From a virus: 64,000 nucleotides of DNA. Position numbers and translations under genes: made by a program. The notes beneath the pieces are model-generated. The model made no database searches, was not told the origin of the DNA, and saw only the letters and a list, made by a program, of their open reading frames with translations. The stretch covers positions 112,182 through 176,181 of IMG/VR virus record IMGVR_UViG_3300043449_002450; one strand, given 5' to 3'. Shown in pieces: positions 9,704 to 52,795 of this stretch (position 1 is the first letter of the stretch; every line of letters starts with the position of its first letter).

Positions 9704-10135
9704 ATGCGTGCTCCCCCGTCGCCTTATAGTCTAATACAAGAGAAGGTCCAGGATGATCCCTGGCGTGTCTTTGTTGTTTGCATATTCTGCAACTTGACTA
9801 AGCGTGTTGATGCCGAGCCCATCATGTGGAAGTTCTTTGACAGATGGCCAGACGCATCATCTGCTGCGCTTGCGGATCAAGAAGAGATCCGTCTAATGAT
9901 CAAGGATCTTGGTCTTGGAGAACGACGTAGCAAGACCCTTGTAAGGATGTCTCAAGATTATCTTTCGTGGAACTCCCGTGACCCTGGAGACCTCTATGGT
10001 ATTGGAGAATATGCAACAGCAGCCTACAAGATTTTCTGTGAACACGCGTGGAGCCAGATCGCTGAGCCAAAGGACGGCGCACTGAAGAAGTATTGGAAAT
10101 GGATCAACAACGTGCAGGAGGTTAGAAATGCCTGA
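9704..10135 (+). CDS. Stand-alone MBD4-like HhH DNA glycosylase (G:T/G:U mismatch type)
   Basis: PPSPYSLIQE..DPW..IFCNLT, LGL..R.KT, LYGIGEY...Y.IFC, EPKD.AL..Y..W; parallels the MBD4 catalytic domain from memory. Confidence 0.8.
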   Translation: MRAPPSPYSLIQEKVQDDPWRVFVVCIFCNLTKRVDAEPIMWKFFDRWPDASSAALADQEEIRLMIKDLGLGERRSKTLVRMSQDYLSWNSRDPGDLYGIGEYATAAYKIFCEHAWSQIAEPKDGALKKYWKWINNVQEVRNA

Positions 10136-10934: not shown

Positions 10935-11180
10935 ATGGAAACAAATAGTTACAAGCTTTCTGATGATGTGATTGGTCAGGTTGCAAAGCTTCTACAGCTA
11001 GCCATTATCACAGGAACAGACGTCGTCGACAATCTCAGGACCCTTAAGGTCAAGCTTGATGTCGATTCTGGTTTGGTTGTTCCAGACCCAGACTACATCA
11101 AGACTTTCGACGAGAACCTAACACGCCTTGTCGCAACAGCAGCGATGGTATCTGCTCATGACGATGAGGGAGAAAACTAG
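10935..11180 (+). CDS. Hypothetical protein
   Basis: RBS GAGGA, operon-coupled. Confidence 0.65.
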   Translation: METNSYKLSDDVIGQVAKLLQLAIITGTDVVDNLRTLKVKLDVDSGLVVPDPDYIKTFDENLTRLVATAAMVSAHDDEGEN

Positions 11181-11554
11181 TGGCCGATAAGCTCGATCTA
11201 ATGTTTGATATGCGGGCCAAGTTCATGGATGAGCTTCGTAAGAAGCACCCGGACGCCTATCCAGACATGCCCGTTGATCTAACTAGCAAGAAGTCGCAAC
11301 AGCACCTCAGGGATCTCGCTCTGCGTGGCGTCGAGGAGGTCTTTGAGGCTGTCCAGCACCTTAAGAACTGGAAGCCACATAGGGAGACTGAGGTCGCCGA
11401 TTTTGATCGCGCGGCTTTCAAAGAGGAGATGGTTGATTCATTCAACTACTTCCTGTCTCTTCTCATCCTGATGGGTGTTACACCGGACGAACTTTACCAA
11501 GCTTACGTCGATAAAGATCAGGTCATACACGGTAGAATAAAAGGTAACTACTGA
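11180..11554 (+). CDS. All-alpha NTP pyrophosphatase (dimeric dUTPase/dCTPase, T4 gp56/MazG-like)
   Basis: EEVFEA..NWKPH..KEEMVD..Y..K. Confidence 0.8.
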   Translation: MADKLDLMFDMRAKFMDELRKKHPDAYPDMPVDLTSKKSQQHLRDLALRGVEEVFEAVQHLKNWKPHRETEVADFDRAAFKEEMVDSFNYFLSLLILMGVTPDELYQAYVDKDQVIHGRIKGNY

Positions 11555-11561
11555 GGATCAT

Positions 11562-12497
11562 ATGAAATTGTCTGACGCGCTCCAGCGCCAGCGTGTGTTT
11601 TCTGATCTGTTCTTTGATTCCACCAAGTTTGATGATGCCAAGCGCGAGGAGATGACAAAGTCTTTCGCGCTTGCATTGCATGGCGAAGTATCAGAACTTA
11701 TCAGCTCGATCAACTTCAAGGACCATCACTCAAATAGGAAAACTCCTGATCGGGAGAAGATCCTATACGAGTCGATCGACGTGATGCGTTATCTCTTCGC
11801 GATCATGAATGTATGGGGATGTGAACCTGACGAGGTCGAGACAGCCTTTGAAGATAAGGACACATTCCTACACATGCGCCATCGTATCGAGAACGCAAAG
11901 TGGGACGGTCGCCCGGTCCTCCTCGTCGACGTCGATGATGTTATTGCGCACTTCAGGAAGGACTACTTCGAGTGGCTTAGCGACAAACACGGAATCAACA
12001 TCCCGTTGGACTATCCGGAATACTACGCATCCTCACCACTGCACGAGCGTGGCATCAACCCAGAAGCTTCCTTTAAGGAATTCATTAGCGAGCGTCGACT
12101 CCGTGTCATCGAGCCCATAGAGGGTGTCCGCGCCGTGCTTAGGGAGGCGCAGAAGATGGGTTTTTGGATCCAGCTTCTGACTGCACGTCCCGACCAGAAT
12201 CTCATTTGCCTCTATGACACCTACCACTGGATAGACAAGATGAGCATCCCATTTGATGGGATTGCTTTCAGCGGTGAAAAATACAGGTGGCTTGTGCAGA
12301 GTCAGTTTTATGGTCATGTAGCAGCATGCATCGATGATTCGCCCAAGCACGCGGCAGAGTATGCAAATCACGGTCTTCTTGTAATCTCACCGAAGCTTTC
12401 GTATAATGAATCATTGAGAGACGTAAAAAACGTCATTCGATATGGCAGCGTCGATGAGCTGCTTGAACAGATCACAGCACTTAAAGAAAAGAGGTAA
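11562..12497 (+). CDS. Fusion: all-alpha NTP pyrophosphatase plus HAD 5'-(deoxy)nucleotidase (NT5C-like)
   Basis: N-terminal GEVSEL..YESIDV..K; C-terminal DVDDVI, LTARP, K, IDDSP HAD motifs I-IV. Confidence 0.75.
   Translation: MKLSDALQRQRVFSDLFFDSTKFDDAKREEMTKSFALALHGEVSELISSINFKDHHSNRKTPDREKILYESIDVMRYLFAIMNVWGCEPDEVETAFEDKDTFLHMRHRIENAKWDGRPVLLVDVDDVIAHFRKDYFEWLSDKHGINIPLDYPEYYASSPLHERGINPEASFKEFISERRLRVIEPIEGVRAVLREAQKMGFWIQLLTARPDQNLICLYDTYHWIDKMSIPFDGIAFSGEKYRWLVQSQFYGHVAACIDDSPKHAAEYANHGLLVISPKLSYNESLRDVKNVIRYGSVDELLEQITALKEKR
12380..12407 (+). promoter_or_regulatory. Internal promoter TGTAA-N17-TATAAT upstream of thyX-2
   Basis: TGTAA 12380-12384, TATAAT 12402-12407; matches the window-wide consensus. 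Confidence 0.55.
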
Positions 12498-12499
12498 AA

Positions 12500-13447
12500 A
12501 TGCCCCAGAATCTAGACCTACAACCTATCACCCTTCCCATGGCGATCCGCTTCGGCGAGAAGCCCACAACCGAGTTTGTCAACAGCCTTGATGCACTCAA
12601 GCTCGAGCTTGTTGACGCTCCGGACCCCTACACCATTCGACAGGCTGTCTACTGCTTTGTCAAGTCGACCTGGGCTGACCAGCATGTTCCATTCCGCGAT
12701 GCATCTGATGCTGATCTCTCGAAGACTCTTGAGGACGTCTTCGCAGGACGTGCTCTTCCTGCAGCGATGGAGCTGATCGGTCTCACCTTCCTCGTGGGTG
12801 GCATCGACACACAGACCGTGACTCACCTCATCCGCCACCGTGCAGGTTCCTTCGCAGCACAGTGCACCGGCGACCGTTGGCTCTCTCACGAGCGCAGCCT
12901 TGTTCCTGGTTCCATCCAGAACAGTCCGGAGTTCTATGCCCGGTGGCAGGCGCATGTCCAGGAGGCGAAGGAGCTCTACACAGACATGGTCGACTCCAAG
13001 CAGATCAGCCTGATGGATGCTCGCCACGTCCTTCCCAAGTGCCTTGAGACCTTCTACTACATGCGCATGAACATCCGTGACGCGTTTGGTTTCATCAAGC
13101 AGCGGCAGGATAAGCAGATCCAGCCCGAGGAGGACAACATCCTCGCAGCTCTCATGGCCCGCGAGATCATCAAGATCTTCCCTGAGGCACACGTGGCGAT
13201 CAACCTCCGCGAGCCTGCCTGGCACTACATCAAGACGTTTCGCAATGGCACGGGCACCAACCTCTACTGGCCTGATGAGGACAGTGAGAAGCACCTTACA
13301 TACCACCCGAACGACACGATCTACCAGGCAACTCGTGACGACATGAATGGCGCGGATGGCGGCGTCCCACACTTCCGCAAGCTCTGGAATGAGATCCTGT
13401 CTGACATCGACACTCTCGTTACTAACTACAAGAATAGCAAGGTATAA
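12500..13447 (+). CDS. Divergent ThyX-like flavoprotein (copy 2)
   Basis: THLIRHRAGSFAAQC (RHR-x7-C instead of RHR-x7-S), DARHVLP, N.R..FIKQR; long N- and C-terminal extensions. Confidence 0.75.
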   Translation: MPQNLDLQPITLPMAIRFGEKPTTEFVNSLDALKLELVDAPDPYTIRQAVYCFVKSTWADQHVPFRDASDADLSKTLEDVFAGRALPAAMELIGLTFLVGGIDTQTVTHLIRHRAGSFAAQCTGDRWLSHERSLVPGSIQNSPEFYARWQAHVQEAKELYTDMVDSKQISLMDARHVLPKCLETFYYMRMNIRDAFGFIKQRQDKQIQPEEDNILAALMAREIIKIFPEAHVAINLREPAWHYIKTFRNGTGTNLYWPDEDSEKHLTYHPNDTIYQATRDDMNGADGGVPHFRKLWNEILSDIDTLVTNYKNSKV

Positions 13448-13449
13448 CA

Positions 13450-13893
13450 ATGAATAACGTCTACATCGCAAGTGGCTGGTTCTCTCCTGAATGGCTCCAG
13501 GAGGTCGAGGACATCAAGAAGGTCCTCGAGGATCTCGACCTCGCTTACTTCTCTCCCAAGGACTATGCCATCGCAGAGGCTGACTCTTCGACTGACACCC
13601 AGAAGCAGATCTTTGACGGCAACGTCAAACACCTTGACACCTGTGACTGGATGGTCTGCAATACCCGCAATAAGGATATGGGATCGATCTGGGAGGCAGG
13701 TTATTTCTACAGTCTCAACAAGCCCATCGTCTACTTCTGTGCAGGTCTACCACCGGGCGCCAAGTTTAATCTGATGCTTGCAGCAAGTGGTGTTGCTGTG
13801 TGCACATCCGTCCAGGACCTACGTGATTATCTTCGTCAGTGCAAGGAGGCAGGCAAGCTCTTGCCACGCACCTACGGCGGATTGATCGAGTAG
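13450..13893 (+). CDS. Nucleoside 2-deoxyribosyltransferase family (NDT/DNPH1/MilB-like N-glycosidase)
   Basis: VYIASGWFS, FSP, DMGSIWEAGY (catalytic Glu), NLML. Confidence 0.85.
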   Translation: MNNVYIASGWFSPEWLQEVEDIKKVLEDLDLAYFSPKDYAIAEADSSTDTQKQIFDGNVKHLDTCDWMVCNTRNKDMGSIWEAGYFYSLNKPIVYFCAGLPPGAKFNLMLAASGVAVCTSVQDLRDYLRQCKEAGKLLPRTYGGLIE

Positions 13894-13906
13894 CCTGCAG
13901 TAATGC

Positions 13907-13948
13907 TTCAAGCCTCACCAACGTGATAAATAGTTGGTGAGGCTTGAA
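13907..13948 (+). promoter_or_regulatory. Perfect 16-bp hairpin with ATAAATA in the loop and the SD plus start codon in the 3' arm
   Basis: ttcaagcctcaccaac 13907-13922 / gttggtgaggcttgaa 13933-13948; loop gtgataaata. Confidence 0.75.
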
Positions 13949-14402
13949 CTATATGGATAGAATGATGATTAGGCGCATGGTTCTGAAAGAGATGCATGAT
14001 CACATGGCGCATGCACATCACAAGCACCGCCACCATGATGAAGAACACGATGATCATGAGGGGCGCGTCTTTCACCACAACGGAGCTGAGGCTGAGAGTG
14101 ACATGATTCACTCCAATCTCTGGACTCTCAAGACACAGGCTTGTGATCTCTACGATATGATCGGAGATAGAGACGATCTTCCAGAGTGGGTCCAGGAGAA
14201 AATAGCTGTTGCTGGATCGATGCTCGATTCAGTCTACGACTATCTTCACTATGAGTATCATGGCGAGGAAGAAGATAGACACGTTCACAGTGATAGAATT
14301 GCTTCTTTTGAGACAGGACACAACTTTGCTTCTGATGCTGATGTTTATGTCGCTCATTTAAATGAAAAGGCGTCGCGGCGCCTTCGCAGAAGAAGAGCCT
14401 GA
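13944..14402 (+). CDS. His-rich hypothetical protein (probable late/virion protein)
   Basis: HDHMAHAHHKHRHHDEEHDDHE tract; LPEWVQEKI..DYL motif; start TTG 13944 or ATG 13953. Confidence 0.7.
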   Translation: MNYMDRMMIRRMVLKEMHDHMAHAHHKHRHHDEEHDDHEGRVFHHNGAEAESDMIHSNLWTLKTQACDLYDMIGDRDDLPEWVQEKIAVAGSMLDSVYDYLHYEYHGEEEDRHVHSDRIASFETGHNFASDADVYVAHLNEKASRRLRRRRA

Positions 14403-14428
14403 ATGTGAATCCAGCCCACGGTCGTGGG

Positions 14429-14456
14429 TGTAAAATAAGGCCACGGTGGCTATGAT
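14429..14456 (+). promoter_or_regulatory. Promoter TGTAA-N17-TATGAT
   Basis: TGTAA 14429-14433, TATGAT 14451-14456; upstream of the epimerase-dnaE operon. Confidence 0.55.
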
Positions 14457-14462
14457 GTGAGC

Positions 14463-15443
14463 ATGAAAGTTCTCATTACTGGCCACCGTGGCTTTATAGC
14501 GTCTAATCTTCCAAGAGCACTCGAGGATCTGGGTCATGAGGTCGTCGCTCCTCATGATATCCACCTGGACTTCAAAATCAAGTCAGGCGAGCATTGCGTC
14601 CACAGGAACTCTGAGGATCATTGGGCGCGTGAGCTTGACTATCACGGCGTCGACGTTGTCATACACAACGCTGCGCTTGTTGGAACAGATGTTGTCGCGC
14701 TTAATCCCTCTGAGGCAACACTTTCTAACGTGACCGGGACATACAACATCTGTCGAGCTGCTGAAAAATCTGGTGCAGCTTTGCTCTATCTGGGCACAAC
14801 TGTGATCTATGACACAGATCGCTATCAAGATGTTGAGATCACTGAGCGATCCTCGCACGGCCCGCAGACGCTTTACGGTTCTCTGAAACTGGCAGGCGAG
14901 CACATCGTCCGCGCACACAGCACGAGGTGGTCGATCGTCCGCCCGCTCTTCTGCTACGGCGGCGTAGGTGACAACAACTCACTGATCGCGAAGGGGTTCT
15001 TTGGTGCTGCCAGCGGCAAGGAGAAGATCGACATGTTCCTCGATCCGAAGAAGATCAAGGACTACATGCGCGTGGAGGACTTCTGCGATGCTGTGGCAAC
15101 TGTCGTGGACAAGGAGCTCTGGAACGATGACTGGAACGTCGCAGCGGAGACGCCTGAGAACACGGGCAAGATCGTCGAGATGATGAGCGAGATCTCGTGC
15201 AAGGATCTAAAGGGTGTGGTAAAATGGCACCCAGGAACCGACTACTTGGGTAACCATCGTCTAAGCTCACAGAAGTTCAGGGATGCATCTGGTTGGTCTC
15301 CAAAGTTCGACCTATATGGTGGCTTGAAAAAGTCATGGAATGACATCCAGCGCAATCTGGGTTCAACGGATTACAATCCCCTCCGCTACCTGGAAGATGC
15401 CAAGAAGCGCGGCCTTGATCTCACACAATTCTTCAACCGGTGA
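14463..15443 (+). CDS. NAD-dependent sugar-nucleotide epimerase/dehydratase (extended SDR) 1
   Basis: VLITGHRGFIA, HNAA, YGSLK (YxxxK), R...YG, DYMRVED. Confidence 0.88.
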   Translation: MKVLITGHRGFIASNLPRALEDLGHEVVAPHDIHLDFKIKSGEHCVHRNSEDHWARELDYHGVDVVIHNAALVGTDVVALNPSEATLSNVTGTYNICRAAEKSGAALLYLGTTVIYDTDRYQDVEITERSSHGPQTLYGSLKLAGEHIVRAHSTRWSIVRPLFCYGGVGDNNSLIAKGFFGAASGKEKIDMFLDPKKIKDYMRVEDFCDAVATVVDKELWNDDWNVAAETPENTGKIVEMMSEISCKDLKGVVKWHPGTDYLGNHRLSSQKFRDASGWSPKFDLYGGLKKSWNDIQRNLGSTDYNPLRYLEDAKKRGLDLTQFFNR

Positions 15444-15449
15444 AATAAC

Positions 15450-18400
15450 ATGAGTATCATTCGACCTCCGGATCGGTTTGTGGGCCTCCATGCCCACTCC
15501 GGTTTCTCGACCATGGACGGCCTCGGCTATCCTGCCCAGCACATTGACTTTGTGCTGAAGAACGGCATGGATGCCTGGGCACTGACAGACCACGGCAACG
15601 GCAGCGGTCTTGCCCACGCTCAGTCACACGCTAAGAAGATGAAGAAGGCTGGCCAGAAGTATCGCCAGCTGAACGGCGTGGAGTTCTACTTTGTCCCATC
15701 GTTGAAGAACTGGGCAGATCAGTATCAAGATCACAAGGACGCTGTCGCTGCCGCTCGTTCTGAGAAGAAGGCGAAGGAGGCGACCGACATCGATGCTGAT
15801 GATGAGGCAGGTGCAGGTCACATCATCGAGAACGAGGACGAGACCAAGGACGCTTCTGCGCTGTCTGTCAAGGATGATGAGTGGAAGCGTCGTTATCACC
15901 TTGTCGTCATTGCCAAGAACAAGCAGGGCCTGTCCAACCTCTTCACTCTTGTCAAGCGGTCCTTCAAGGAGGGGTATTACCGGTTCCCGCGCATCGACTT
16001 TGATATGCTTAAGGAGCACGGCGAAGGCCTCGTCGTCTCGACAGCATGCATCGGCGGAATCATGTCCAACCGCGTCCTCCGCGGCCAGGCAATGCAGAAG
16101 TCTGATGCTGAGATCCAGCGTGATCTCAAGAACCTGACAGATCGATTTGTCGATGCGGTCGGCCTTGAGAACTTCAACCTCGAGATCCAGTTCAATAAGC
16201 TGCAGGCACAGCACGATGTCAACCGCCATCTGATCCAACTGCACAAGAGCACAGGTGTCCCGCTGGTTGCAACTTGCGACAGCCACTATCCTACACCCGA
16301 CAAGTGGAAGACCCGTGAGCTCTACAAGAAGCTGGCGTGGATGAATGCCAAGGAGGAGCCCAAGCCCCTCCCAGCTTTCGATGAGCTGAAGTGTGAGCTC
16401 TACCCGAAGAACGCCGAGCAGATGTGGGAGGAGTTCAACCGCCACACCGATGACTATGCCTTCTACAAGGGCAACGAGGAGCTGGTCCGCGATGCGATCG
16501 AGCGGACCCATGACATCGCCTGGCAGCAGTGTGAGGACGTCTGGGTTGACACGGGAGCAAAGCTTCCTGTGTTCGCAACTCCCGAGAAGAGCGAGTTCCA
16601 GCAGCTTCTGGATCTCGTCAAGGAACGGATGATCGATATCGGCCTGCACGAGAAGCCGGAGTATGTTGAGCGTGTGAAAGAAGAGCTCTCAGACATCAAG
16701 CATCTGGGACATGCCTCTTACTTCCTCACGATGTATAAGATCTTCCATCGTGCAGAGCAAAAGACTCTCCTCGGGCCAGGCCGTGGATCTGCTCCTGGTT
16801 CTCTCGTCAACTACATCCTCGGGATTACACAGATTGATCCGCTTCCGTTCGGTCTCCTCTGGAATCGCTTCCTTGGTCGGCATCGTGTGTCTTGGCCTGA
16901 TATTGACTCCGATGCTGGTGATCGTGACGTTCTTATTGACGCGGCACGTGAGCTCTTCGGTGACGATGCTGTCATTCCCGTCTCCAACTTCAACACCCTG
17001 AAGCTGAAGTCGCTGGTGAAGGACGTCGCGAAGTTCTTCAATGTTCCGTTCGATGAGGTCAATGCGGTCACTGGTCCGCTCCAGGATGAGGTCATGCCAC
17101 ATGCTAAGGATGATGACCAGGAGAAATCGGTCTTCGTTCTGAAGCATGATGACTGCATGAAGTATTCTCCAAAATACAAGGCCTTCATGGAGAAATACCC
17201 GGAGGTGGAGGAGCACGTTAATGCGCTCTTCATGGAGAACCGATCGATCGGCCGTCACGCTGGCGGCGTCCTCGTTGCAGAACCCAAGGCGTTGGCCGAA
17301 GGCATGCCCATCATCGGTGTTCGCGGTGAATTGCAGACACCGTGGACAGAAGGTATGAACTTCCGCAACCTGGAGGATAACGGCTTCCTCAAGTTCGACT
17401 TCCTCGGCCTAACACTGCTCAAGGACGTAGAGAACTGCATCAAGCGGATCCTAATTGGGCAAGGTAATCCTGAGCCGACATTCCTTCAAATCAAGGAGTT
17501 CTTTGACCAGAATCTTAATTGCCGAACGGTCAATCAAGACGATCCTGAAGTTTGGAAGCATGTGTATCATGACGGACGATTTGTCGGTGTCTTCCAGTTC
17601 ACAGCGGACGGTGCAAGGCGGTTCTGCTTGGATGCAAAGCCGACAAACATCGGCGAGCTGGCGGCTCTAACTGCAATCTATCGGCCAGGTCCGCTGAAGG
17701 CGAACGTTCACAAGCTCTATGTCAAGGCCAAGAAGGATGCCGACAACATCAAGTATGACCATCCAGTCATCCAGGAAGTGCTAGGGCCCACGTTTGGTTA
17801 CGTCGTCTTCCAGGAGCAGTTCATGATGCTGGCCCAAAAGCTAGCAGGGTTCTCTCCTGGCGAGGCTGACCAACTCCGCAAGACTCTTGTCAAGAAATCG
17901 CTGGACACGCTGGGCAAGAAGTCTTCTGAGAAGGAGGCTGCACGGAAGCAGTTCATCGACGGTGCGCTTGCTCTGCACGGTGTGCCCGAGAAGGTGACAG
18001 GACCGCTATGGGATACGATCGAGGCGTTCTCGGTATACGGCTTCAACAAGTCACACTCGGTCTCCTACGCGATCGATTCCTACTACGCAGCATGGTTGCA
18101 CACCCACTATGAGAAGGAGTGGCTGGCAACAATCCTACAGTCTGAGACCGGTAATCCCAAGGGCATCGCAAAGGCCATTGCAGAGATCAAGCAGATCGGT
18201 TACAAGTTCGCGCAAGTCGACATTAACTACTCGGGTCTCGAATGGCAATACTCTGAGGAGGCACAGGCATTCGTTGCGCCCCTTACCTCGGTCAAGGGGC
18301 TAGGTGATGCGGCAGTTGCCGAGATCTTCCAGAATCGTCCTTACCGCGGTCTTGATGATCTATTCTTCGATGAGGAAGGTGAGTGGCGTCACTCCAAGCT

Positions 18401-19016
18401 GAACAAGGGTTGCCTTGAGTCTCTAGTTCTTGTTGAAGGTTTCGGTTCTCTCAAGGAAATGCGAGATGGCACACTCAAGAATCACAACCAGCTCCACAAC
18501 CTGCTGTCTTCAAACTATGATGCCCTTCGCAAGGGTCGCATGGGCATGACCAAGACTGCTGCCAAAAAATACGAGAAAGAACACGGGACCAAGCCAGATG
18601 CACTTTCGATGATGATCCCTGAGGTAAATCATATCGAGGACTGGACGAGAACACAGAAGATCGCAAACATCGTGGAGGTCTTGTCCTCTGCGCCAGAGGA
18701 TCTGATCTTCCCGCCCGACATCATGCGCAAGGTTAAGAAGTCACAGGTTCAGGCGCTTTATGACCTCGAACCCGGAGAGCCAGGCATCGTATGGTTCTGC
18801 GCCACAGCAGTGACCAAGAAGGTGACCAAGAATAATAAACAGTTCTATGTGTTCGATACAGTTGATGATCAGAGCCGCACTATTCGACTTCGTGTTTGGG
18901 GACAGTTCAAGACCGAGCCTGAGCCCTACACGATCTGGATGGCTGAGGCTGAACGTGATCCAAATTGGGGACCTTCAACAATGGCATCTAAACTTCGGCG
19001 TGTGGAGACAAAGTGA
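15450..19016 (+). CDS. dnaE: DNA polymerase III alpha subunit (family C)
   Basis: PHP LHAHSGFS..DG, ALTDHG, GPGRGSA, PDIDSD, HAGGV, KFDFLGL, YRPGP, YGFNKSHS; no intein seen. Confidence 0.97.
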   Translation: MSIIRPPDRFVGLHAHSGFSTMDGLGYPAQHIDFVLKNGMDAWALTDHGNGSGLAHAQSHAKKMKKAGQKYRQLNGVEFYFVPSLKNWADQYQDHKDAVAAARSEKKAKEATDIDADDEAGAGHIIENEDETKDASALSVKDDEWKRRYHLVVIAKNKQGLSNLFTLVKRSFKEGYYRFPRIDFDMLKEHGEGLVVSTACIGGIMSNRVLRGQAMQKSDAEIQRDLKNLTDRFVDAVGLENFNLEIQFNKLQAQHDVNRHLIQLHKSTGVPLVATCDSHYPTPDKWKTRELYKKLAWMNAKEEPKPLPAFDELKCELYPKNAEQMWEEFNRHTDDYAFYKGNEELVRDAIERTHDIAWQQCEDVWVDTGAKLPVFATPEKSEFQQLLDLVKERMIDIGLHEKPEYVERVKEELSDIKHLGHASYFLTMYKIFHRAEQKTLLGPGRGSAPGSLVNYILGITQIDPLPFGLLWNRFLGRHRVSWPDIDSDAGDRDVLIDAARELFGDDAVIPVSNFNTLKLKSLVKDVAKFFNVPFDEVNAVTGPLQDEVMPHAKDDDQEKSVFVLKHDDCMKYSPKYKAFMEKYPEVEEHVNALFMENRSIGRHAGGVLVAEPKALAEGMPIIGVRGELQTPWTEGMNFRNLEDNGFLKFDFLGLTLLKDVENCIKRILIGQGNPEPTFLQIKEFFDQNLNCRTVNQDDPEVWKHVYHDGRFVGVFQFTADGARRFCLDAKPTNIGELAALTAIYRPGPLKANVHKLYVKAKKDADNIKYDHPVIQEVLGPTFGYVVFQEQFMMLAQKLAGFSPGEADQLRKTLVKKSLDTLGKKSSEKEAARKQFIDGALALHGVPEKVTGPLWDTIEAFSVYGFNKSHSVSYAIDSYYAAWLHTHYEKEWLATILQSETGNPKGIAKAIAEIKQIGYKFAQVDINYSGLEWQYSEEAQAFVAPLTSVKGLGDAAVAEIFQNRPYRGLDDLFFDEEGEWRHSKLNKGCLESLVLVEGFGSLKEMRDGTLKNHNQLHNLLSSNYDALRKGRMGMTKTAAKKYEKEHGTKPDALSMMIPEVNHIEDWTRTQKIANIVEVLSSAPEDLIFPPDIMRKVKKSQVQALYDLEPGEPGIVWFCATAVTKKVTKNNKQFYVFDTVDDQSRTIRLRVWGQFKTEPEPYTIWMAEAERDPNWGPSTMASKLRRVETK

Positions 19017-19921
19017 TTCAATTCGATCTTCGTAGCGTGACAATCGAGGGGCCAGACTGCTCAGGCAAGTCAACCCTCTATTATGGGATTCATAAGCTCA
19101 CAAACTTCAAGTGGAACATCCAGGATAGAAGCACATTGTCCATGCTCTGCTACGCGAAGATGTATGGGCGCGATGTGTCTGTCTGGCGCAGGCTTCTTGA
19201 TGAGGAACTGAAAGTCATCAATAATGCTGTCATTGTCCTCTTGCCAGAGCCTGATGATCTTGTCCAGCGGTTGCGCACTCGAGGTGATGACTTCCAGGAC
19301 GAGGAATCTATCGTTCGCCTCCTGCAGATATTTGAAGAGGAGACGGATAAGATCAAAGGTTATCCTAACGTCAAGGTCATAAGGGCCTTGCCAGATCCTG
19401 CTAAGGTTGTTAGCTGGTTGCAATCGCGCGAGCACCTCACATATTCTGATATCGCTCGTGACATCGAAGCTCATGCTGATGGGACAATCAAGCAGGAAAC
19501 GACACTACTCAGAGCTTTCTGGCTTGACTCACACTTCGAGACGTTGGATGAGGCAGCTCTTCACTATGAGCATGAGATCGAGTATTACAATGAGACCAGA
19601 GCCAAGCTGATTAGGAAGATCAATGATGAGCTTGTAGGTAATAATGAATATAAGCGCCCACAGGATCTAAAGTCCCGTCGCTTTATACTGACGCAGGACA
19701 CATGCATATCTTATGTCCATTTTTTGGTTAGAGATGACTTTGTAATATGCAGCTCGACTGTGAGGTCATCTGAGTGCAGTCAGACGTTCCACAGAGATAT
19801 TCATTTTATCGCCGATCTTGCACGCGTGTTCAAGAACATGCTCAACCTCAGCCCTAAGATGCCTGTCTCATTTTCTTTGACCATGGACTCGGCACATATT
19901 ATCCGCAGCGCTGTAAGATAG
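19013..19921 (+). CDS. Fusion: dNMP (thymidylate) kinase-like plus compact thymidylate-synthase/dCMP-hydroxymethylase-like domain
   Basis: IEGPDCSGKST and DRS (TMK); C-terminal SRR..TCISYVHF.VR..VRSSE....RDIHF parallels TS SRR..PC..QF..QRSxD..N. Confidence 0.7.
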   Translation: MIQFDLRSVTIEGPDCSGKSTLYYGIHKLTNFKWNIQDRSTLSMLCYAKMYGRDVSVWRRLLDEELKVINNAVIVLLPEPDDLVQRLRTRGDDFQDEESIVRLLQIFEEETDKIKGYPNVKVIRALPDPAKVVSWLQSREHLTYSDIARDIEAHADGTIKQETTLLRAFWLDSHFETLDEAALHYEHEIEYYNETRAKLIRKINDELVGNNEYKRPQDLKSRRFILTQDTCISYVHFLVRDDFVICSSTVRSSECSQTFHRDIHFIADLARVFKNMLNLSPKMPVSFSLTMDSAHIIRSAVR

Positions 19922-19936
19922 CGCTTTGGAGGGAGT

Positions 19937-20923
19937 ATGTCTAGAGTTTTAGTAACAGGTGGTGCAGGATTCATAGGCTCACACCTGGTTGATGGCCTCG
20001 TGAGTCAAGGGTATAAGGTTGACGTCGTCGATGATCTCAGATCTGGTGATCTTGGCAATCTATCCAACCACACCTATAGAACAGTGCCAGGAATGCTGAT
20101 AGACCAGCTTGATATTAATTTGAAGCTAGACACTCCCATTCGTGTCATCATGGATGATTTTGCTTCTAATGCTGTGCTGAATAGAATTGCGTCAGGAAAG
20201 TATGATGTAATATTTCATCTTGCTGCAGAACCAAGCGTGCCGTTCTCAGTAGAGTGGCCCGCACTTACAACTGATGAGAACTTTTCTAAATATGTTAAAT
20301 TGCTTACGGCCGCTCGTGGTAATACTAGCAGAGTAGTTTTTGCATCGTCAGCTGCTGTCTATGGTGATATAAAGCAGCTTCCCATACATGAAGATCTTCC
20401 TACCAAGCCTGTGAGTCCTTATGGACTACAGAAAAAGATGGGTGAGGAGATGGGTGAGATGTTTAGCGATCTTTATAAACTTGATGTTGTCTCGTTAAGG
20501 TTTTTTAACGTCTTTGGTCCACGACAAAAAGGAGCAGGTGCTTATGCAAATGCCATATCATCTTGGTGCTGCGCTGCGTTTGAGAATAGACCACTAAGAT
20601 CAGATGGCACAGGTGACCAGACACGTGATCTTTGCTACGTCGGTGAGATAGTGAATGCTTGCATAGCAGCTGGGAGATATACAGGAAAGTTTGCAGGTGA
20701 AAAGATCAATGTTTGCACAGGCACACAGAGAAGCAACAACTCTATCCTTAAGTTCTTTCTTGACCGACATGATAGTTTAAAGATTACAAGCTCACCCAAG
20801 CGCCCAGGCGACGTCGATCATATTCTAGGATCAGATATCAAGATGCGAAAATACTTAGGAGATTGTGCTACACTAAGCTTTGACGAAGCACTCGATATAA
20901 CTTTAAAGAGTTGGGGTCTGTAA
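19937..20923 (+). CDS. NAD-dependent sugar-nucleotide epimerase/dehydratase (extended SDR) 2
   Basis: VTGGAGFIG, FHLAA, SSAAVYG, YGLQK, RFFNVFGP, G.Q.RD, RPGD. Confidence 0.92.
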   Translation: MSRVLVTGGAGFIGSHLVDGLVSQGYKVDVVDDLRSGDLGNLSNHTYRTVPGMLIDQLDINLKLDTPIRVIMDDFASNAVLNRIASGKYDVIFHLAAEPSVPFSVEWPALTTDENFSKYVKLLTAARGNTSRVVFASSAAVYGDIKQLPIHEDLPTKPVSPYGLQKKMGEEMGEMFSDLYKLDVVSLRFFNVFGPRQKGAGAYANAISSWCCAAFENRPLRSDGTGDQTRDLCYVGEIVNACIAAGRYTGKFAGEKINVCTGTQRSNNSILKFFLDRHDSLKITSSPKRPGDVDHILGSDIKMRKYLGDCATLSFDEALDITLKSWGL

Positions 20924-21474
20924 TGAGTTCACCAAGATTTGTTATTTATTGCGGTCCAATGATGAGCTCTAAGACGACTCGTCTCATTGCTGCAATCGAG
21001 AGATATCGTTTTAAGAACAAGAAGGTATTCTCCTTCAAGCCCAAGCTTGACAGTCGATATACGCCTGACGAGATCTGCACACATAGCGGCAGCAAGATTA
21101 ACGCAAGAGTTATCACAAGCGGAAGCGACATCACAAAATGTGTCATGTTTGATGAGCCTGATGTCATTGCTGTCGATGAAGCATTCATGATTGATGGCGT
21201 CGCTGAGGCACTAATAGATGCTTACAGGCGTGGTGTTACCGTGCTGGTGTCTACGATTGAGCTGTCCTCATCTTGCAATGTCTTTGCTGAAGTGGAGAAG
21301 ATGCTACCCTGGGCGACAGAGATTGAGAAGTGCACTGCAGTTTGCGTCGTATGCGGAGAAGATGCACAATACACCCATCGGAAGGTTGATAATCTGGGAG
21401 AGATCGCCGTCGGAGGCGCAGAGTTATATGAACCGAGATGCTGGTTGCATCATGCAACGGCACGCCTCCAGTAG
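20923..21474 (+). CDS. tdk: Thymidine kinase (type II)
   Basis: GPMMSSKT P-loop, DSRY, VDEA, CVVC, GG..YEPRC..H. Confidence 0.88.
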   Translation: MSSPRFVIYCGPMMSSKTTRLIAAIERYRFKNKKVFSFKPKLDSRYTPDEICTHSGSKINARVITSGSDITKCVMFDEPDVIAVDEAFMIDGVAEALIDAYRRGVTVLVSTIELSSSCNVFAEVEKMLPWATEIEKCTAVCVVCGEDAQYTHRKVDNLGEIAVGGAELYEPRCWLHHATARLQ

Positions 21475-21480
21475 TATAAT
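21453..21480 (+). promoter_or_regulatory. Promoter TGCAA-N17-TATAAT
   Basis: TGCAA 21453-21457, TATAAT 21475-21480. Confidence 0.55.
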
Positions 21481-21495
21481 TGAGCTAGGGCAGTC

Positions 21496-22329
21496 ATGAT
21501 CGATCCAAACAGCGTCAATCTGGTTATCTACCACGCATCTTGCACTGATGGATTTGGTGCTGCTTATGCAGCATGGAAGCTCCTTGGTGACAGAGCTGAG
21601 TATCACGCAGCGAAATACGGCGAATCGCCACCTGACGTCAAGGGCAAAAATGTAGTTGTCCTTGACTTCTCTTATGATAATTCGACAACAAAGAAGCTTA
21701 TGAAGGAAGCCAAAAGCTTCTTTATCCTTGATCATCACAAGTCAGCAATGGTCGAGCTTCACGACATTACTTGCACACATTTTGATATGAACCACAGCGG
21801 TGCAATGCTATCATGGAAGTTCTTCCATCCGGGCAAGGAAGCGCCTCGCATGATTAAGTTCATCGAGGACCGCGACCTCTGGAAGTGGGACATTCCATAT
21901 TCGAAGGAGTTCTCTGCTGCCTTTGACATGGTGCCTTATGACTTTGAAGAGTTTGACAAATATCTTGATGACTCTGCAGTCGATGATGCTCAGGAGCGAG
22001 GTGCTTACATCCTTGCTTATTCCAAGACGGTCATCTCCAAGATCGCGAAGCACGCTGCACCACGCAGATTAGCCGGTAAAGACGTCCTGGTCGTCAATTC
22101 ACCACACTGGATGTCAGAGATTGGCAACGCGCTCTCCCCTAAGTGTGACTTCGCCGTGATCTGGTTCTATGACCATGATACACGCCAAGTGAAGGTGAGT
22201 CTCAGAGCACATCATGACGACTCCGACGTGAGTGAGGTCGCGAAGAAGTTCGGCGGTGGGGGACACCGGAAGGCAGCAGGTTTTAGTCTACCAACAAACG
22301 TCAGTATCGAAACAATCTTTGACAAGTGA
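21496..22329 (+). CDS. DHH/DHHA1 phosphoesterase
   Basis: YHASCTDG, LDF, LDHH, DRDLW, SLR, GGGGH..AAGF. Confidence 0.9.
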   Translation: MIDPNSVNLVIYHASCTDGFGAAYAAWKLLGDRAEYHAAKYGESPPDVKGKNVVVLDFSYDNSTTKKLMKEAKSFFILDHHKSAMVELHDITCTHFDMNHSGAMLSWKFFHPGKEAPRMIKFIEDRDLWKWDIPYSKEFSAAFDMVPYDFEEFDKYLDDSAVDDAQERGAYILAYSKTVISKIAKHAAPRRLAGKDVLVVNSPHWMSEIGNALSPKCDFAVIWFYDHDTRQVKVSLRAHHDDSDVSEVAKKFGGGGHRKAAGFSLPTNVSIETIFDK

Positions 22330-22796
22330 TGCTAATGACTAATATGATTGACAGGCCAACGTGGGACAGCGTGTGGATGGATGTTGCTAAGACAATCGCA
22401 CAACGCTCGCCTGATCCTAACCACAAAGTTGCTGCTATTGTTGTAACAGATGACAACACACAGCTCCTGTCGTTGGGTTACAACGGCGATCATGCAGGCG
22501 GCACAAATATTAGAGAATCTGATGAGCCAGGTGAATCTGGATTCATCCATGCTGAGGTAAATGCGCTGATAAAACTTGACTATAACAACCCTAAACGTAA
22601 GGTAATGTATGTTACTCTGAGCCCATGCAAGATGTGTGCGAAGTCGATCGTGAACGCAGGCATATCAGAGGTCGTGTTTTCTGAGATTTACCGCGATTCA
22701 ATTGGCATCAAGATACTGGAATCAGCAGGTATCCACGTTAGGAAGATAAATAGCTTTAGAGCGGGTTTGACGCATGACAAGACTCACAGCGGCTGA
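22326..22796 (+). CDS. dCMP deaminase
   Basis: RPTWD, RS.D, GYNG, HAEVNA, SPCKMC. Confidence 0.92.
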   Translation: MMLMTNMIDRPTWDSVWMDVAKTIAQRSPDPNHKVAAIVVTDDNTQLLSLGYNGDHAGGTNIRESDEPGESGFIHAEVNALIKLDYNNPKRKVMYVTLSPCKMCAKSIVNAGISEVVFSEIYRDSIGIKILESAGIHVRKINSFRAGLTHDKTHSG

Positions 22797-29837: not shown

Positions 29838-29890
29838 CGTTTTAACGTGCATCCCGCGCTGTCTAAGATCGCTTAAAGCACGGAGTTTCT

Positions 29891-52789: not shown

Positions 52790-52795
52790 CTTCAC

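What the first reader, a model, noticed from the sequence alone, without database searches (positions are those of the whole stretch)
11180..22796. Putative novel pyrimidine (hyper)modification pathway wrapped around dnaE
Seen, in order: an all-alpha dNTPase, a dNTPase-HAD nucleotidase fusion, a divergent ThyX, an NDT-family N-glycosidase, SDR epimerase 1, dnaE, a kinase/TS-fold fusion, SDR epimerase 2, TK, DHH and dCMP deaminase. A canonical ThyX at 8677 already covers dTMP supply. Established: base-substituting phages (T4 hmC, SPO1 hmU) combine a TS-fold modifier, a dedicated dNMP kinase and a dNTPase that removes the canonical nucleotide, and NDP-sugar enzymes supply glycosyl decoration. 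Inference: this phage makes a modified, possibly sugar-bearing, pyrimidine nucleotide before replication for use by its own family-C polymerase. I do not recognise this enzyme combination from characterised pathways. No glycosyltransferase is visible in the window.
Basis: partly seen in the sequence, partly recalled or inferred. Interest (0 to 1): 0.82.

Follow-up and report, generated by a model that had tools for sequence, protein, structure and literature searches.

The report
Phage cytosine-modification module with ThyX paralogue
A large uncultured aquatic phage carries, around its DnaE polymerase, a widely conserved gene set (a nucleotide kinase fused to a stripped-down cytosine-type thymidylate-synthase domain, plus an unusual second ThyX) that most likely makes a C5-modified cytosine nucleotide for its DNA by a route not yet described.

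Summary
Every listed gene is at the stated coordinates and in the stated family. The "kinase/TS-fold fusion" is confirmed by an AlphaFold model (pLDDT 94) and by fold and profile searches.

- **Kinase–TS fusion.** Its C-terminal ~150 residues form a minimal thymidylate-synthase fold. The closest structures are phage HY126 dCMP hydroxylase AfhB, T4 dCMP hydroxymethylase and MilA. It keeps the catalytic Cys, and its invariant Asp aligns with the cytosine-specifying Asp179 of T4 dCH. Its N-terminal half is a YorR/TMK-like kinase.
- **Precedent.** A TS homologue plus a YorR-like kinase is the published core of 5-hydroxycytosine phages (NAR 2026).
- **What is new.** This mini-TS co-occurs, in six of six informative phage lineages, with a long divergent ThyX ("ThyX2", signature RHR…AQCTGDR). 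One lineage is the cultivable Geobacillus phage GR1. A canonical ThyX is present alongside ThyX2 in this genome and in four of five large relatives.
- **Synteny.** The order o81, MazG, MazG–NT5C, ThyX2, NDT, DnaE, fusion, SDR2 is conserved across 80 IMG/VR loci.
- **Not shown.** The product's chemistry (5hm, 5ho or other), ThyX2's role and any sugar decoration. No glycosyltransferase lies in the module.

Other first-stage notes on this same genome flagged the same stretch. I looked up none on other DNA.

The parts
8677..9342 (+). ThyX1, canonical flavin-dependent thymidylate synthase (221 aa)
   Evidence: Pfam Thy1 120 bits. TIGR02170 scores 104.5, over the 87.9 cut-off. GHETPFE and KHR...S..SARY motifs are present.
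9704..10135 (+). MBD4-like HhH-GPD DNA glycosylase (143 aa)
   Evidence: phmmer against PDB: mammalian MBD4 glycosylase domain, E=4e-32, end to end. Present upstream of the module in 40 of 82 loci.
10128..10925 (+). Fpg/Nei-family DNA glycosylase (265 aa)
   Evidence: Pfam H2TH, Fapy_DNA_glyco N-terminal and C-terminal domains. Found in 44 of 82 loci.
10935..11180 (+). o81, conserved small helical protein of unknown function; first gene of the tight five-gene block
   Evidence: No Pfam or PHROG hit. Homologue in 72 of 82 loci, always just upstream of the MazG-like gene. Conserved LQLAILTGTDVVDNLR core.
11180..11554 (+). Stand-alone all-alpha (MazG/dimeric-dUTPase-like) dNTP pyrophosphatase, 124 aa
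   Evidence: Pfam dUTPase_2, phrog_12184. EExxE...EExxD metal motifs are invariant. Found in 78 of 82 loci. About 34% identical to actinophage 'dUTPase/dCTP pyrophosphatase/MazG' genes.
11562..12497 (+). Fusion of an all-alpha NTP-pyrophosphatase-like domain (degenerate first metal motif) with an NT5C/HAD 5'-deoxynucleotidase, 311 aa
   Evidence: Pfam NT5C at residues 117-300 and dUTPase_2 at 24-92. HAD motifs D123/D125/D126, T207, K240 and D258/D259 are invariant. Found in 74 of 82 loci.
12500..13447 (+). ThyX2: long divergent ThyX paralogue (315 aa) with invariant VTHLIRHRAGSFAAQCTGDR signature and an 80-aa C-terminal extension
   Evidence: Pfam Thy1 71 bits, but under the TIGR02170 cut-off. 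More than 1200 metagenomic homologues. Against T. maritima ThyX: S88 to Cys, H53 to Leu, E86 to Ala, H178 to Gln, arginines kept. AF2 pLDDT 85 with a ThyX fold, TM up to 0.77.
13450..13893 (+). Nucleoside 2-deoxyribosyltransferase-family protein (147 aa)
   Evidence: Pfam Nuc_deoxyrib_tr 62 bits. Only PDB sequence hit is N-deoxyribosyltransferase 6evs, E=2.6e-11, with the WE catalytic Glu aligned. Found in 76 of 82 loci, usually directly after ThyX2.
13907..13948 (.). Perfect 16-bp inverted repeat (10-nt loop) between the NDT gene and the next ORF; possible operon boundary or regulatory hairpin
   Evidence: the repeat finder: arms 13907-13922 and 13933-13948, 100% complementary.
13944..14402 (+). 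His/Asp/Glu-rich 152-aa ORF, function unknown, present only in the closest relatives
   Evidence: No Pfam, PHROG or NCBIfam hit. Homologue in 7 of 82 loci. Sequence.
14457..15443 (+). SDR1: divergent extended SDR (RmlD/RmlB/epimerase-like), 328 aa
   Evidence: Pfam Epimerase 101 bits, RmlD_sub_bind 83 bits. Best PDB matches are dTDP-4-dehydrorhamnose reductase and dTDP-glucose dehydratase, at only E~1e-12. Found between NDT and DnaE in 44 of 82 loci.
15450..19016 (+). DnaE-type (family C) replicative DNA polymerase, 1188 aa
   Evidence: tblastn: about 30% identity to phage DnaE-like polymerases. 55-96% identity in the related loci.
19013..19921 (+). Bifunctional fusion (302 aa). Residues 1-150 form a YorR/TMK-like P-loop nucleotide kinase. 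Residues ~155-302 form a minimal thymidylate-synthase-fold domain of cytosine type ('mini-TS'). The start overlaps the dnaE stop.
   Evidence: AF2 pLDDT 94. Foldseek top hits are 9iqu/9iqc AfhB dCMP hydroxylase, then ThyA, MilA and T4 dCH. VIA: AfhB Z 12.1 over 149 aa, YorR Z 12.5. Profile against PDB: T4 dCH E=3e-4, AfhB E=0.015, with Cys and Asp179 aligned. Residue tally. The full-length fusion is present in 17 of 19 loci with room downstream of DnaE.
19937..20923 (+). SDR2: WbpP/WbgU/GalE-like UDP-hexose or UDP-HexNAc 4-epimerase, 328 aa
   Evidence: Pfam Epimerase 163 bits. PDB 6wjb E=2e-45, WbpP E=4e-33, WbgU E=4e-29. Follows the fusion gene in most relatives.
20911..21474 (+). Thymidine kinase (187 aa)
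   Evidence: Pfam TK 120 bits.
21496..22329 (+). DHH/DHHA1 phosphoesterase (277 aa)
   Evidence: Pfam DHHA1/DHH. phrog_4771, E=7e-81.
22326..22796 (+). dCMP/cytidine deaminase (156 aa)
   Evidence: Pfam dCMP_cyt_deam_1 81 bits. HAEVNAL and PCKMC zinc motifs.

Best explanation
The stretch is the nucleotide-supply island of a large DnaE-replicating aquatic phage. Its distinctive core is a pre-replicative route to a C5-modified deoxycytidine nucleotide.

Proposed flow:
1. The all-alpha pyrophosphatases hydrolyse canonical dNTPs (dCTP and/or dUTP) to monophosphates. (Inferred.)
2. The minimal TS-fold domain of the 302-aa fusion protein binds dCMP. The family, the fold, the catalytic Cys231 and the Asp262 at the cytosine-specifying position are shown. 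The substrate is inferred.
3. That domain adds a substituent at C5: hydroxymethyl, hydroxyl or another one-carbon group. (Chemistry not resolved.)
4. The fused YorR/TMK-like kinase takes the product to the diphosphate. (Kinase fold and motifs shown; substrate inferred.)
5. Host NDP kinase and the phage DnaE put it into DNA. (Inferred.)

Roles of the other genes:
- ThyX2 is a flavoenzyme of the ThyX fold. It keeps the FAD- and nucleotide-binding arginines, but has an invariant Cys-x-x-Asp where ThyX has its Ser, and has lost the folate-stacking His. It is an obligate companion of the mini-TS across unrelated phages. It most likely catalyses or supports a C5 transfer on a pyrimidine nucleotide other than dTMP synthesis. 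(Inferred.)
- ThyX1 and the dCMP deaminase keep dTMP supply going, as td and cd do in T4.
- The NT5C domain, NDT and TK form a deoxynucleoside salvage and rebalancing branch.
- SDR2 could supply a UDP-sugar epimer for later decoration, but nothing ties it to DNA.
For: (1) The TS fold of residues ~155-302 is supported three ways.
- AF2 gives pLDDT 94.
- Foldseek E=7.5e-7 to AfhB, then ThyA, MilA and T4 dCH.
- VIA gives Z 12.1 over 149 aa to AfhB and Z 11 to MilA and ThyA.

(2) The profile of 18 homologues hits T4 dCMP hydroxymethylase (E=3.3e-4) and AfhB (E=0.015). The family's Cys aligns to Cys148. Its invariant Asp aligns to the very residue that differs between wild-type T4 dCH and its D179N mutant entry.

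(3) Over 174 family members:
- Cys in 165 of 169.
- Asp in 163 of 163 at the N177/D179 position.
- The Arg pair, Arg-Ser and His are kept.

(4) The kinase half matches YorR and TMK at Z 12.5. Its P-loop GPDCSGKS and its DR motif are invariant.

(5) Published precedent (PMC13326640):
- 5hodCMP synthases are TS homologues with N177D.
- They sit next to YorR-like nucleotide kinases in DLP3, RB69 and RL38JI.
- They work together with MazG-type dCTPases.

(6) Synteny is conserved in 80 IMG/VR loci.

(7) A ThyX2-like gene lies within 6 kb of a mini-TS in six of six informative lineages, which use DnaE, PolA or PolB. The two genes are adjacent in Geobacillus phage GR1 and in L094. HAD/NT5C, a small TMK-like kinase, dUTPase_2 and dCMP deaminase recur there too.

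(8) A canonical ThyX co-exists with ThyX2 here and in 4 of 5 large relatives, so ThyX2 is not simply the clade's thymidylate synthase.

(9) The MBD4-like glycosylase (E=4e-32) removes deamination products of C, 5mC and 5hmC in eukaryotes. That is established knowledge, and it fits a genome rich in modified cytosine.
Against: - No chemical data exist. Sequence alone cannot show that the DNA is modified.
- The mini-TS lacks roughly the N-terminal 100 and C-terminal 55 residues of ThyA that carry much of the folate site, and it stays under Pfam PF00303 thresholds. Its cofactor is therefore unknown, and it could be a binding module rather than an enzyme.
- The published 5hoC marker (Asn at the D169 position) is not met here: the window has Glu254. 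That position flips among D, N and E about 30 times on a 152-sequence tree, so it does not predict the product in this family.
- No DNA glycosyltransferase, and no dCTPase of proven specificity, lies in the module.
- No trimeric dUTPase was found in the available half of the genome, so one MazG-like enzyme may be just the dUTPase.
- ThyX2 keeps the Arg that contacts uracil O4 in ThyX. (The contact is from memory; the alignment is.) That speaks for a uracil substrate rather than a cytosine one.
- The genome record is only about 52% complete by CheckV.
Confidence: 0.55

Rival explanations
1. Ordinary housekeeping island. All enzymes only boost and balance canonical dNTP pools for a large phage. 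Its genes would be RNR, two thymidylate synthases, dUTPase-type pyrophosphatases, nucleotidase/NDT/TK salvage, a dNMP kinase and dCMP deaminase. ThyX2 would be a second, divergent dTMP synthase. The mini-TS would be a nucleotide-binding or regulatory appendage of the kinase. The SDRs would serve virion or cell-surface glycan synthesis.
For: - Relatives fill gaps in the island with more plain nucleotide metabolism: GMP reductase, trimeric dUTPase and a phosphoribosyltransferase.
- No GT lies in the module.
- SDR2 is a standard UDP-hexose 4-epimerase.
- A large glycan island with GT2/GT4 genes lies elsewhere in the genome.
- NT5C, NDT and TK make a coherent salvage loop (established knowledge of Lactobacillus NDT salvage).
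- GR1 has ThyX2 as its only TS-type gene.
Against: - The mini-TS keeps every catalytic residue of the TS superfamily and an invariant cytosine-type Asp. That is hard to explain for a non-catalytic module, and it is wrong for dTMP synthesis.
- ThyX2 fails the ThyX equivalog cut-off and has lost the Ser, His53 and His178 equivalents.
- ThyX2 co-exists with a canonical ThyX in most genomes examined.
- The ThyX2/mini-TS pairing recurs across unrelated phages.
Confidence: 0.25
2. Thymine rather than cytosine is the replaced base. The MazG-NT5C fusion would drain dTTP through dTMP to thymidine. ThyX2 would convert dUMP, supplied by dCMP deaminase, into a non-methyl C5 derivative such as 5-hydroxymethyl-dUMP. 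A kinase would then activate it, by analogy with SPO1/phi-e type phages. This could also operate in addition to the cytosine route.
For: - ThyX2 keeps the arginines that bind dUMP phosphate and uracil in ThyX.
- The pyrophosphatase-nucleotidase fusion sits immediately upstream of ThyX2, with 2-nt spacing, and is conserved in 74 of 82 loci.
- dTTPase and dTMP nucleotidase activities are hallmarks of hmU and U phages (established knowledge, from memory).
Against: - A canonical ThyX and a thymidine kinase are kept in the same genome. Both would feed dTTP.
- The substrate specificity of the MazG-like domains is unknown.
- The first metal motif of the fused pyrophosphatase domain is degenerate.
- No hmU-processing genes (5-HMUDK, aGPT-Pplase) were seen in the annotated part of the window.
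Confidence: 0.12
3. The TS-like enzyme and the NDT-family protein act as MilA and MilB do in mildiomycin biosynthesis. They would release a free modified pyrimidine base or nucleoside as a small molecule, for example to interfere with host metabolism or defence, and not as a DNA building block.
For: - The mini-TS matches MilA at Z 11.1.
- An NDT-family gene is part of the conserved core both in the aquatic clade and in GR1.
- MilA (TS fold) and MilB (NDT fold) are a known pair (established knowledge).
Against: - The TS domain is fused to a nucleotide kinase, which points forward to di- and triphosphates.
- The NDT protein's only solved relative by sequence is a true deoxyribosyltransferase, not MilB or BlsM.
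- The module brackets the replicative polymerase.
Confidence: 0.05

Closest known systems
5-hydroxy-dCMP synthase (AfhB of phage HY126; RB69 gp48, DLP3 gp80) with its neighbouring YorR-like nucleotide kinase and MazG-type dCTPase (PMC13326640; PDB 9iqu/9iqc)
   Same: TS fold (best structural match). Catalytic Cys. Asp at the ThyA-N177 position. Partnership with a YorR-like kinase. All-alpha dNTP pyrophosphatases in the same genome.
   Different: - The domain here is about 150 aa against 217-240 aa, and it is fused to the kinase in one polypeptide.
- The D169N marker is not met in the window (Glu). It is met in about 40% of family members.
- No adjacent GT4 DNA glycosyltransferases or arabinose genes.
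- Always accompanied by a ThyX2-type gene, which those systems lack as far as described.
T4 dCMP hydroxymethylase gp42 with dNMP kinase gp1, dCTPase/dUTPase gp56, dCMP deaminase cd, td and tk
   Same: Best sequence-profile match of the mini-TS (1b49, E=3.3e-4), with Cys148, the RS-x-D motif and Asp179 aligned. The overall pathway logic and the accessory enzymes (deaminase, TK, canonical TS, RNR) match.
   Different: - Most of the folate-binding N-terminal half and the C-terminal part are absent.
- The kinase is of the YorR/TMK type, not the gp1 type.
- The polymerase is DnaE, not family B.
- No alpha- or beta-glucosyltransferase was identified.
Flavin-dependent thymidylate synthase ThyX (Thy1, PF02511) and its paralogue PolB (UMP/dUMP methylase of polyoxin biosynthesis)
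   Same: ThyX2 has the ThyX fold (TM 0.65-0.77). It keeps the RHR motif and the Arg147/Arg174 equivalents.
   Different: - 315 aa, with N- and C-terminal extensions.
- Ser88 to an invariant Cys within QCTGDR, with a 2-residue insertion.
- His53 to Leu, Glu86 to Ala, His178 to Gln.
- Below the TIGR02170 cut-off.
- Co-exists with a canonical ThyX and is genomically tied to the mini-TS.
MilA/MilB (CMP hydroxymethylase plus hmCMP N-glycosidase) of mildiomycin biosynthesis
   Same: A cytosine-type TS-fold enzyme and an NDT-fold protein are encoded together. MilA is a structural match at Z 11.1.
   Different: The context is deoxynucleotide metabolism, with the TS domain fused to a kinase. The NDT protein resembles transferases rather than MilB. 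It is a phage replication module, not an antibiotic cluster.

Membership tests
Thymidylate synthase superfamily (ThyA / dCMP hydroxymethylase / 5hodCMP synthase), for residues ~155-302 of the fusion protein | TS alpha/beta fold | tested here: met
   Foldseek E 7.5e-7 to 1e-4 to AfhB, ThyA, MilA and T4 dCH. VIA Z 12.1 (AfhB, 149 aa, rmsd 2.9) and Z 10.9-11.1 (MilA, ThyA).
Thymidylate synthase superfamily | Catalytic Cys (E. coli C146 / T4 dCH C148) | tested here: met
   Cys231 aligns with Cys148 of T4 dCH. Cys in 165 of 169 family members.
Thymidylate synthase superfamily | Phosphate-binding Arg pair (R126/R127), R166/S167 and the His207 equivalent | tested here: met
   S221-R222-R223, R251-S252 and H295 are invariant or nearly so. 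Mapping to E. coli numbers follows motif spacing and the T4 dCH and AfhB alignments.
Thymidylate synthase superfamily | Full-length folate-binding architecture; passes Pfam PF00303 | tested here: not met
   The domain is only about 150 aa. No PF00303 hit for any of 18 members at E<=1, nor in the six-frame genome search.
Cytosine-specific branch (dCMP hydroxymethylase / 5hodCMP synthase / MilA) | Asp in place of ThyA Asn177 (T4 dCH Asp179) | tested here: met
   Asp262 aligns with the residue that distinguishes 1b49 (D) from the D179N entry 6l18. Asp in 163 of 163 members.
5hodCMP synthase (Lee et al. 2026 diagnostic) | Asn in place of ThyA Asp169 | tested here: not met
   The window has Glu254. 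The family has D 75, N 68, E 16 and H 4. The residue changes about 30 times on the tree. The GR1 mini-TS is of the N type.
dNMP/TMP kinase (YorR/TMK/dNK-like P-loop kinases), for residues 1-150 | P-loop, DR(S/Y) NMP-site motif, kinase fold | tested here: met
   GPDCSGKS and D38-R39 are invariant. YorR: E=5e-6 by sequence and Z 12.5 by structure.
ThyX (flavin-dependent thymidylate synthase), for ThyX2 | Pfam Thy1 domain and ThyX fold | tested here: met
   PF02511 71 bits against a 24.8 cut-off. Foldseek to ThyX structures, TMt 0.62-0.77.
ThyX (functional equivalog) | TIGR02170 equivalog score; ThyX motif RHRxxSxxxxSxRY; folate-stacking His53 | tested here: not met
   TIGR02170 50.3 bits against an 87.9 cut-off. 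The second Ser is replaced by an invariant Cys with a 2-aa insertion. His53 to Leu and His178 to Gln. The best PDB sequence match is the S88C mutant 3g4c.
Nucleoside 2-deoxyribosyltransferase family | Pfam domain and catalytic Glu in the D-x-G-[ST]-x-W-E motif | tested here: met
   PF05014 62 bits. Alignment with 6evs keeps DxGTxWE as DMGSIWE. Whether it acts as a transferase or a hydrolase was not testable.
Glycosylated-cytosine DNA systems (T4 glc-hmC; RB69/DLP3 ara-hoC; RL38JI) | DNA glycosyltransferase(s) encoded with the base-modifying enzyme | tested here: not met
   No GT was found in the annotated part of the window (about 5.4-24.3 kb) or by tblastn with this genome's GT-island ORFs and the GR1 GT in the 10-kb flanks of 82 related loci. 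GT2/GT4 genes lie at genome positions 28-46 kb. GR1 does have a GT 3 kb from ThyX2.
Glycosylated-cytosine DNA systems | dCTP pyrophosphatase that removes the canonical nucleotide | tested here: inconclusive
   Two all-alpha NTP pyrophosphatase domains are present. Relatives are annotated variously as dUTPase, dCTPase or MazG. Specificity cannot be read from sequence.

The most novel reading that the evidence does not exclude
A ThyX-family flavoenzyme (ThyX2) and a minimal, kinase-fused TS-fold enzyme together form a previously undescribed two-enzyme system for making a non-canonical C5-substituted pyrimidine (most likely cytosine) nucleotide. ThyX2 would either perform a flavin-relayed one-carbon transfer, using its invariant Cys/Asp pair, or supply the cofactor chemistry that the truncated TS domain has lost. 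This would be the first ThyX-family member recruited to DNA base modification. It would be abundant in aquatic large phages and present in cultivable Geobacillus phage GR1.
Probability: 0.35. Interest if true: 0.85.

Novelty: new variant of a known kind. Interest (0 to 1): 0.7.

Why it matters
- **Why base modifications matter.** Phage DNA base modifications decide sensitivity to restriction, CRISPR and type IV systems. They are also a source of new enzymes and sequencing artefacts.
- **Current state of knowledge.** All nucleotide-level pyrimidine modifiers described so far belong to the classical ThyA superfamily.
- **What this finding adds.** A minimal TS core of about 150 aa is fused to its kinase (383 clusters at 50% identity). 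It is systematically linked to a distinct, very abundant ThyX paralogue (more than 1200 metagenomic homologues) across phages with DnaE, PolA and PolB replicases.
- **If confirmed.** It would add a second enzyme superfamily to DNA hypermodification. It would define how small a functional TS can be. It would also flag a large fraction of aquatic large-phage DNA as chemically non-canonical.
- **Testability.** The question can be tested directly, because phage GR1 of Geobacillus stearothermophilus carries the ThyX2/mini-TS pair.

Tried and rejected
- **A kinase-TS-SDR2 triple fusion in L020 and L028.** This was an artefact of my own ORF-extension script. An in-frame stop separates the two genes.
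- **ThyX2 as the clade's only thymidylate synthase.** The idea came from ThyX1 appearing in only 12 of 82 flanks. I rejected it because 4 of 5 large related contigs carry a canonical ThyX elsewhere.
- **Complex prediction of ThyX2 with the mini-TS domain.** No verdict (score 0.01). This is not evidence either way.
- **megablast and tblastn against isolate phages.**
  - No DNA match for the region.
  - No tblastn hit for the fusion protein.
  - ThyX2 hit only GR1.
  - The best DnaE hit was about 30% identical.
- **The 7-8 kb insertion between ThyX2 and NDT in the closest relatives (L005 etc.).** It holds only hypothetical proteins, with no modification enzymes.
- **Gaps after SDR2 in L037 and L061.** They hold GMP reductase, trimeric dUTPase and a PRTase, and no GT.
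- **Six-frame genome searches in the available 176 kb.** No match for PF00303 (ThyA), PF00145 (C5 DNA methylase) or PF00692 (trimeric dUTPase).
- **Profile of the small MazG-like protein against PDB sequences.** Nothing significant.
- **Promoter and terminator scan.** Counts were close to those of shuffled controls (21 against a mean of 17 promoter-like sites; 18 against 11 terminator-like sites), so I defined no operon boundaries from them.
- **Word-index homologue search with the mini-TS region.** It found only 7 proteins. The exhaustive profile search was needed.
- **Literature.** I found no paper on ThyX-family enzymes in phage DNA modification or on phage GR1 DNA chemistry. The primary AfhB paper (He et al.) is not in the library.

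Full report
**1. What is there**

The window is the last 64 kb of a 176,181-bp linear IMG/VR virus record. CheckV rates the record about 52% complete. All genes run on the + strand and there are 12 tRNA genes.

Between 5.3 and 24 kb lies a replication and nucleotide-metabolism island. Its genes, in order:
- RNR and ClpP
- canonical ThyX1
- an MBD4-like glycosylase overlapping an Fpg/Nei glycosylase
- a tight five-gene block, o81 / MazG-like / MazG-like–NT5C fusion / ThyX2 / NDT, with spacings from -1 to 8 nt
- a perfect 16-bp hairpin
- a His-rich ORF
- SDR1
- DnaE
- a 302-aa fusion gene whose start overlaps the dnaE stop
- SDR2, TK, DHH and dCMP deaminase

It missed the two small ORFs.

**2. 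The kinase/TS fusion is real and is of cytosine type**

- *Fold.* An alignment of 19 homologues gave an AlphaFold model with pLDDT 94.
  - Foldseek ranks phage HY126 dCMP hydroxylase AfhB (9iqu, 9iqc) first, followed by ThyA, MilA and T4 dCMP hydroxymethylase.
  - VIA-align gives Z 12.1 over 149 residues for AfhB and about Z 11 for MilA and ThyA.
  - The N-terminal half matches YorR, deoxyadenosine kinase and TMK at Z 12.5.
- *Sequence.* A profile of the C-terminal 150 residues hits T4 dCH (E=3.3e-4) and AfhB (E=0.015).
  - The family's Cys aligns to Cys148.
  - Its RS-x-(D/E/N) motif aligns to the RSND of dCH and the RSQN of AfhB.
  - Its invariant Asp aligns to the exact residue that differs between wild-type dCH and the D179N mutant entry.
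- *Family.* An exhaustive profile search finds 383 clusters. Most are about 300-aa fusions and some are stand-alone proteins of 150-200 aa. Over 174 sequences:
  - the Cys is present in 165 of 169;
  - the Asp is present in 163 of 163;
  - the ThyA-D169 position is D in 75, N in 68, E in 16 and H in 4.
- *Limits.* The window protein has Glu254 at the D169 position. That position changes about 30 times on a 152-sequence tree, and the window's nearest relatives outside its own 80%-identity group are of the N type. I therefore do not use it to name the product. The domain has no Pfam PF00303 hit. It lacks most of the N- and C-terminal parts of ThyA, so its cofactor is open.

**3. Published precedent**

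Lee et al. (NAR 2026, PMC13326640) report the following:
- RB69, DLP3, RL38JI and other phages make 5-hydroxy-dCMP with flavin-using TS homologues that carry N177D and D169N.
- YorR-like 'nucleotide kinases' sit next to these genes, for example DLP3_078 (Foldseek match 3kb2).
- MazG-type dCTPases and GT4-like DNA glycosyltransferases complete those systems.

The fusion protein in this window is that kinase/TS pair in one chain. The concept is therefore known, but this form of it is not.

**4. ThyX2**

- *Divergence.* ThyX2 passes Pfam Thy1 but fails the ThyX equivalog model (50 against 88 bits).
- *Abundance and signature.* It has more than 1200 metagenomic homologues, many on contigs of 100-300 kb. 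They share an invariant VTHLIRHRAGSFAAQCTGDR signature.
- *Comparison with T. maritima ThyX.*
  - The RHR motif and the Arg147 and Arg174 equivalents are kept.
  - Ser88 is replaced by Cys; the best PDB sequence hit is the S88C mutant.
  - His53 becomes Leu, Glu86 becomes Ala and His178 becomes Gln.
  - There is a two-residue insertion that brings in an invariant Asp.
- *Fold.* The model (pLDDT 85) has the ThyX fold.
- *Inference.* A Cys near C6 plus a nearby Asp is the same solution that cytosine-C5 enzymes use. ThyX2 may therefore be a flavin-dependent C5 transferase acting on a pyrimidine nucleotide other than in dTMP synthesis. The retained Arg174 equivalent argues for a uracil-type substrate, so this stays open.

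**5. Conservation and linkage**

- *Synteny.* Eighty IMG/VR loci share the order o81, MazG, MazG–NT5C, ThyX2, NDT, (SDR1), DnaE, fusion, SDR2, TK, DHH.
  - Homologues appear in 72, 78, 74 and 76 of 82 loci for the four genes that flank ThyX2.
  - The full-length fusion is present in 17 of 19 loci that have room downstream of DnaE.
- *ThyX1 and ThyX2 together.* A canonical ThyX co-exists with ThyX2 in 4 of 5 large relatives.
- *The same pairing outside this clade.* Every informative context has a ThyX2-like gene close to the mini-TS.
  - In Geobacillus phage GR1, the 'hypothetical protein' directly after ThyX2 is a stand-alone mini-TS (E=9e-9, N type). An NDT, a split YorR-like P-loop protein, a nitroreductase-type flavoprotein, a GT and a DnaE-like polymerase lie nearby.
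  - L094 has the order HD, ThyX2, mini-TS.
  - A PolA phage (L095), a PolB phage (L097/L098) and another DnaE phage (L099/L100) each have a long ThyX-like gene within 6 kb of a mini-TS. They also carry HAD/NT5C, a small TMK-like kinase, dUTPase_2 and dCMP deaminase.

That makes six of six informative lineages. The seventh contig (L096, 929 bp) is too short to judge.

**6. Accessory genes**

- *SDR2* is a WbpP/WbgU/GalE-like 4-epimerase (E=2e-45).
- *SDR1* is a divergent RmlD/RmlB-like SDR.
- *Glycosyltransferases.* None lies in the annotated part of the window or in the flanks of relatives. GT2 and GT4 genes sit at genome positions 28-46 kb. An unchecked first-stage note describes a glycan island there, next to virion genes. 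Sugar decoration of DNA is therefore possible but unsupported.
- *The NDT protein* resembles a true deoxyribosyltransferase. Together with the NT5C domain and TK it makes a plausible salvage loop.
- *The HhH-GPD protein* is a close homologue of the mammalian MBD4 glycosylase domain (E=4e-32).

**7. Verdict**

The most likely reading (0.55) is a pre-replicative cytosine C5-modification pathway of the T4/RB69 type, built from new parts: a minimal TS fused to its kinase, with an obligate ThyX2 companion.

Rivals:
- a purely housekeeping island (0.25);
- thymine replacement through ThyX2 (0.12, and it could co-occur with the cytosine route);
- a MilA/MilB-like free-base product (0.05).

The product's chemistry, ThyX2's function and any glycosylation remain inferred. 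GR1 offers a direct experimental test.

Noticed in passing
window 9704-10135 and 10128-10925: A stand-alone homologue of the mammalian MBD4 glycosylase domain (E=4e-32, end to end) overlaps an Fpg/Nei gene by 8 nt. The pair recurs upstream of the module in about half of the related loci. It is unusual for a phage and may be tied to repair of deaminated modified cytosine.
   Followed up: partly
L001 (Geobacillus phage GR1, OK896991) 12969-13424; record 29720-30175: The annotated 'hypothetical protein' UDY80710 directly after the ThyX2-type gene is a stand-alone mini-TS with the RSSN (D169N-type) motif. A nitroreductase-type flavoprotein, a glycosyltransferase, an HD protein, an amidoligase and a gamma-glutamylcyclotransferase lie nearby. 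GR1 is a cultivable candidate for modified DNA.
   Followed up: partly
window 13907-13948: A perfect 16-bp inverted repeat with a 10-nt loop lies between the NDT gene and the His-rich ORF, and overlaps that ORF's start.
   Followed up: partly
window 13944-14402: A 152-aa ORF very rich in His, Asp and Glu (HxHHKHRHHDEEHDDHE...), with no family hit. It is present only in the closest relatives and may be a metal-binding protein.
   Followed up: no
window 10935-11180: An 81-aa protein with no known family but a strongly conserved LQLAILTGTDVVDNLR core. It heads the MazG/ThyX2/NDT block in 72 of 82 related loci.
   Followed up: partly
genome G000:C1 about 25-50 kb (outside the window): A cluster holds at least four GT2 and three GT4 matches, flanked by SDR-like ORFs. 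A first-stage note also lists gmd/fcl and methyltransferases there and places the island next to virion genes. It is a candidate for virion or other glycan synthesis.
   Followed up: partly
L005-L009, L017 (closest relatives), locus coordinates about 10950-17300: A 6-8 kb insertion of hypothetical genes separates ThyX2 from NDT in the closest relatives but is absent from this window. One of its genes has weak carbohydrate-binding-like hits.
   Followed up: partly
L014 (IMGVR_UViG_3300007735_000739): In this relative the RNR and DnaE genes are interrupted by inteins or HNH elements. The NDT domain sits in a longer 279-aa protein, followed by a class I methyltransferase.
   Followed up: no
window 52714-60642: Twelve tRNA genes lie in three clusters: Lys, Gln, Glu, Leu x2, Arg x2, Gly, Ile x2, Tyr and Lys.
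   Followed up: no
window 23034-23732: A 232-aa protein has an Fe/Mn superoxide dismutase C-terminal domain. It is conserved downstream of the dCMP deaminase in a few relatives.
   Followed up: no
L002 11666-12748 and L037 18750-19811: GMP reductase/IMPDH-family genes are inserted in the same nucleotide island in relatives. In L002 the gene lies between ThyX2 and NDT.
   Followed up: no
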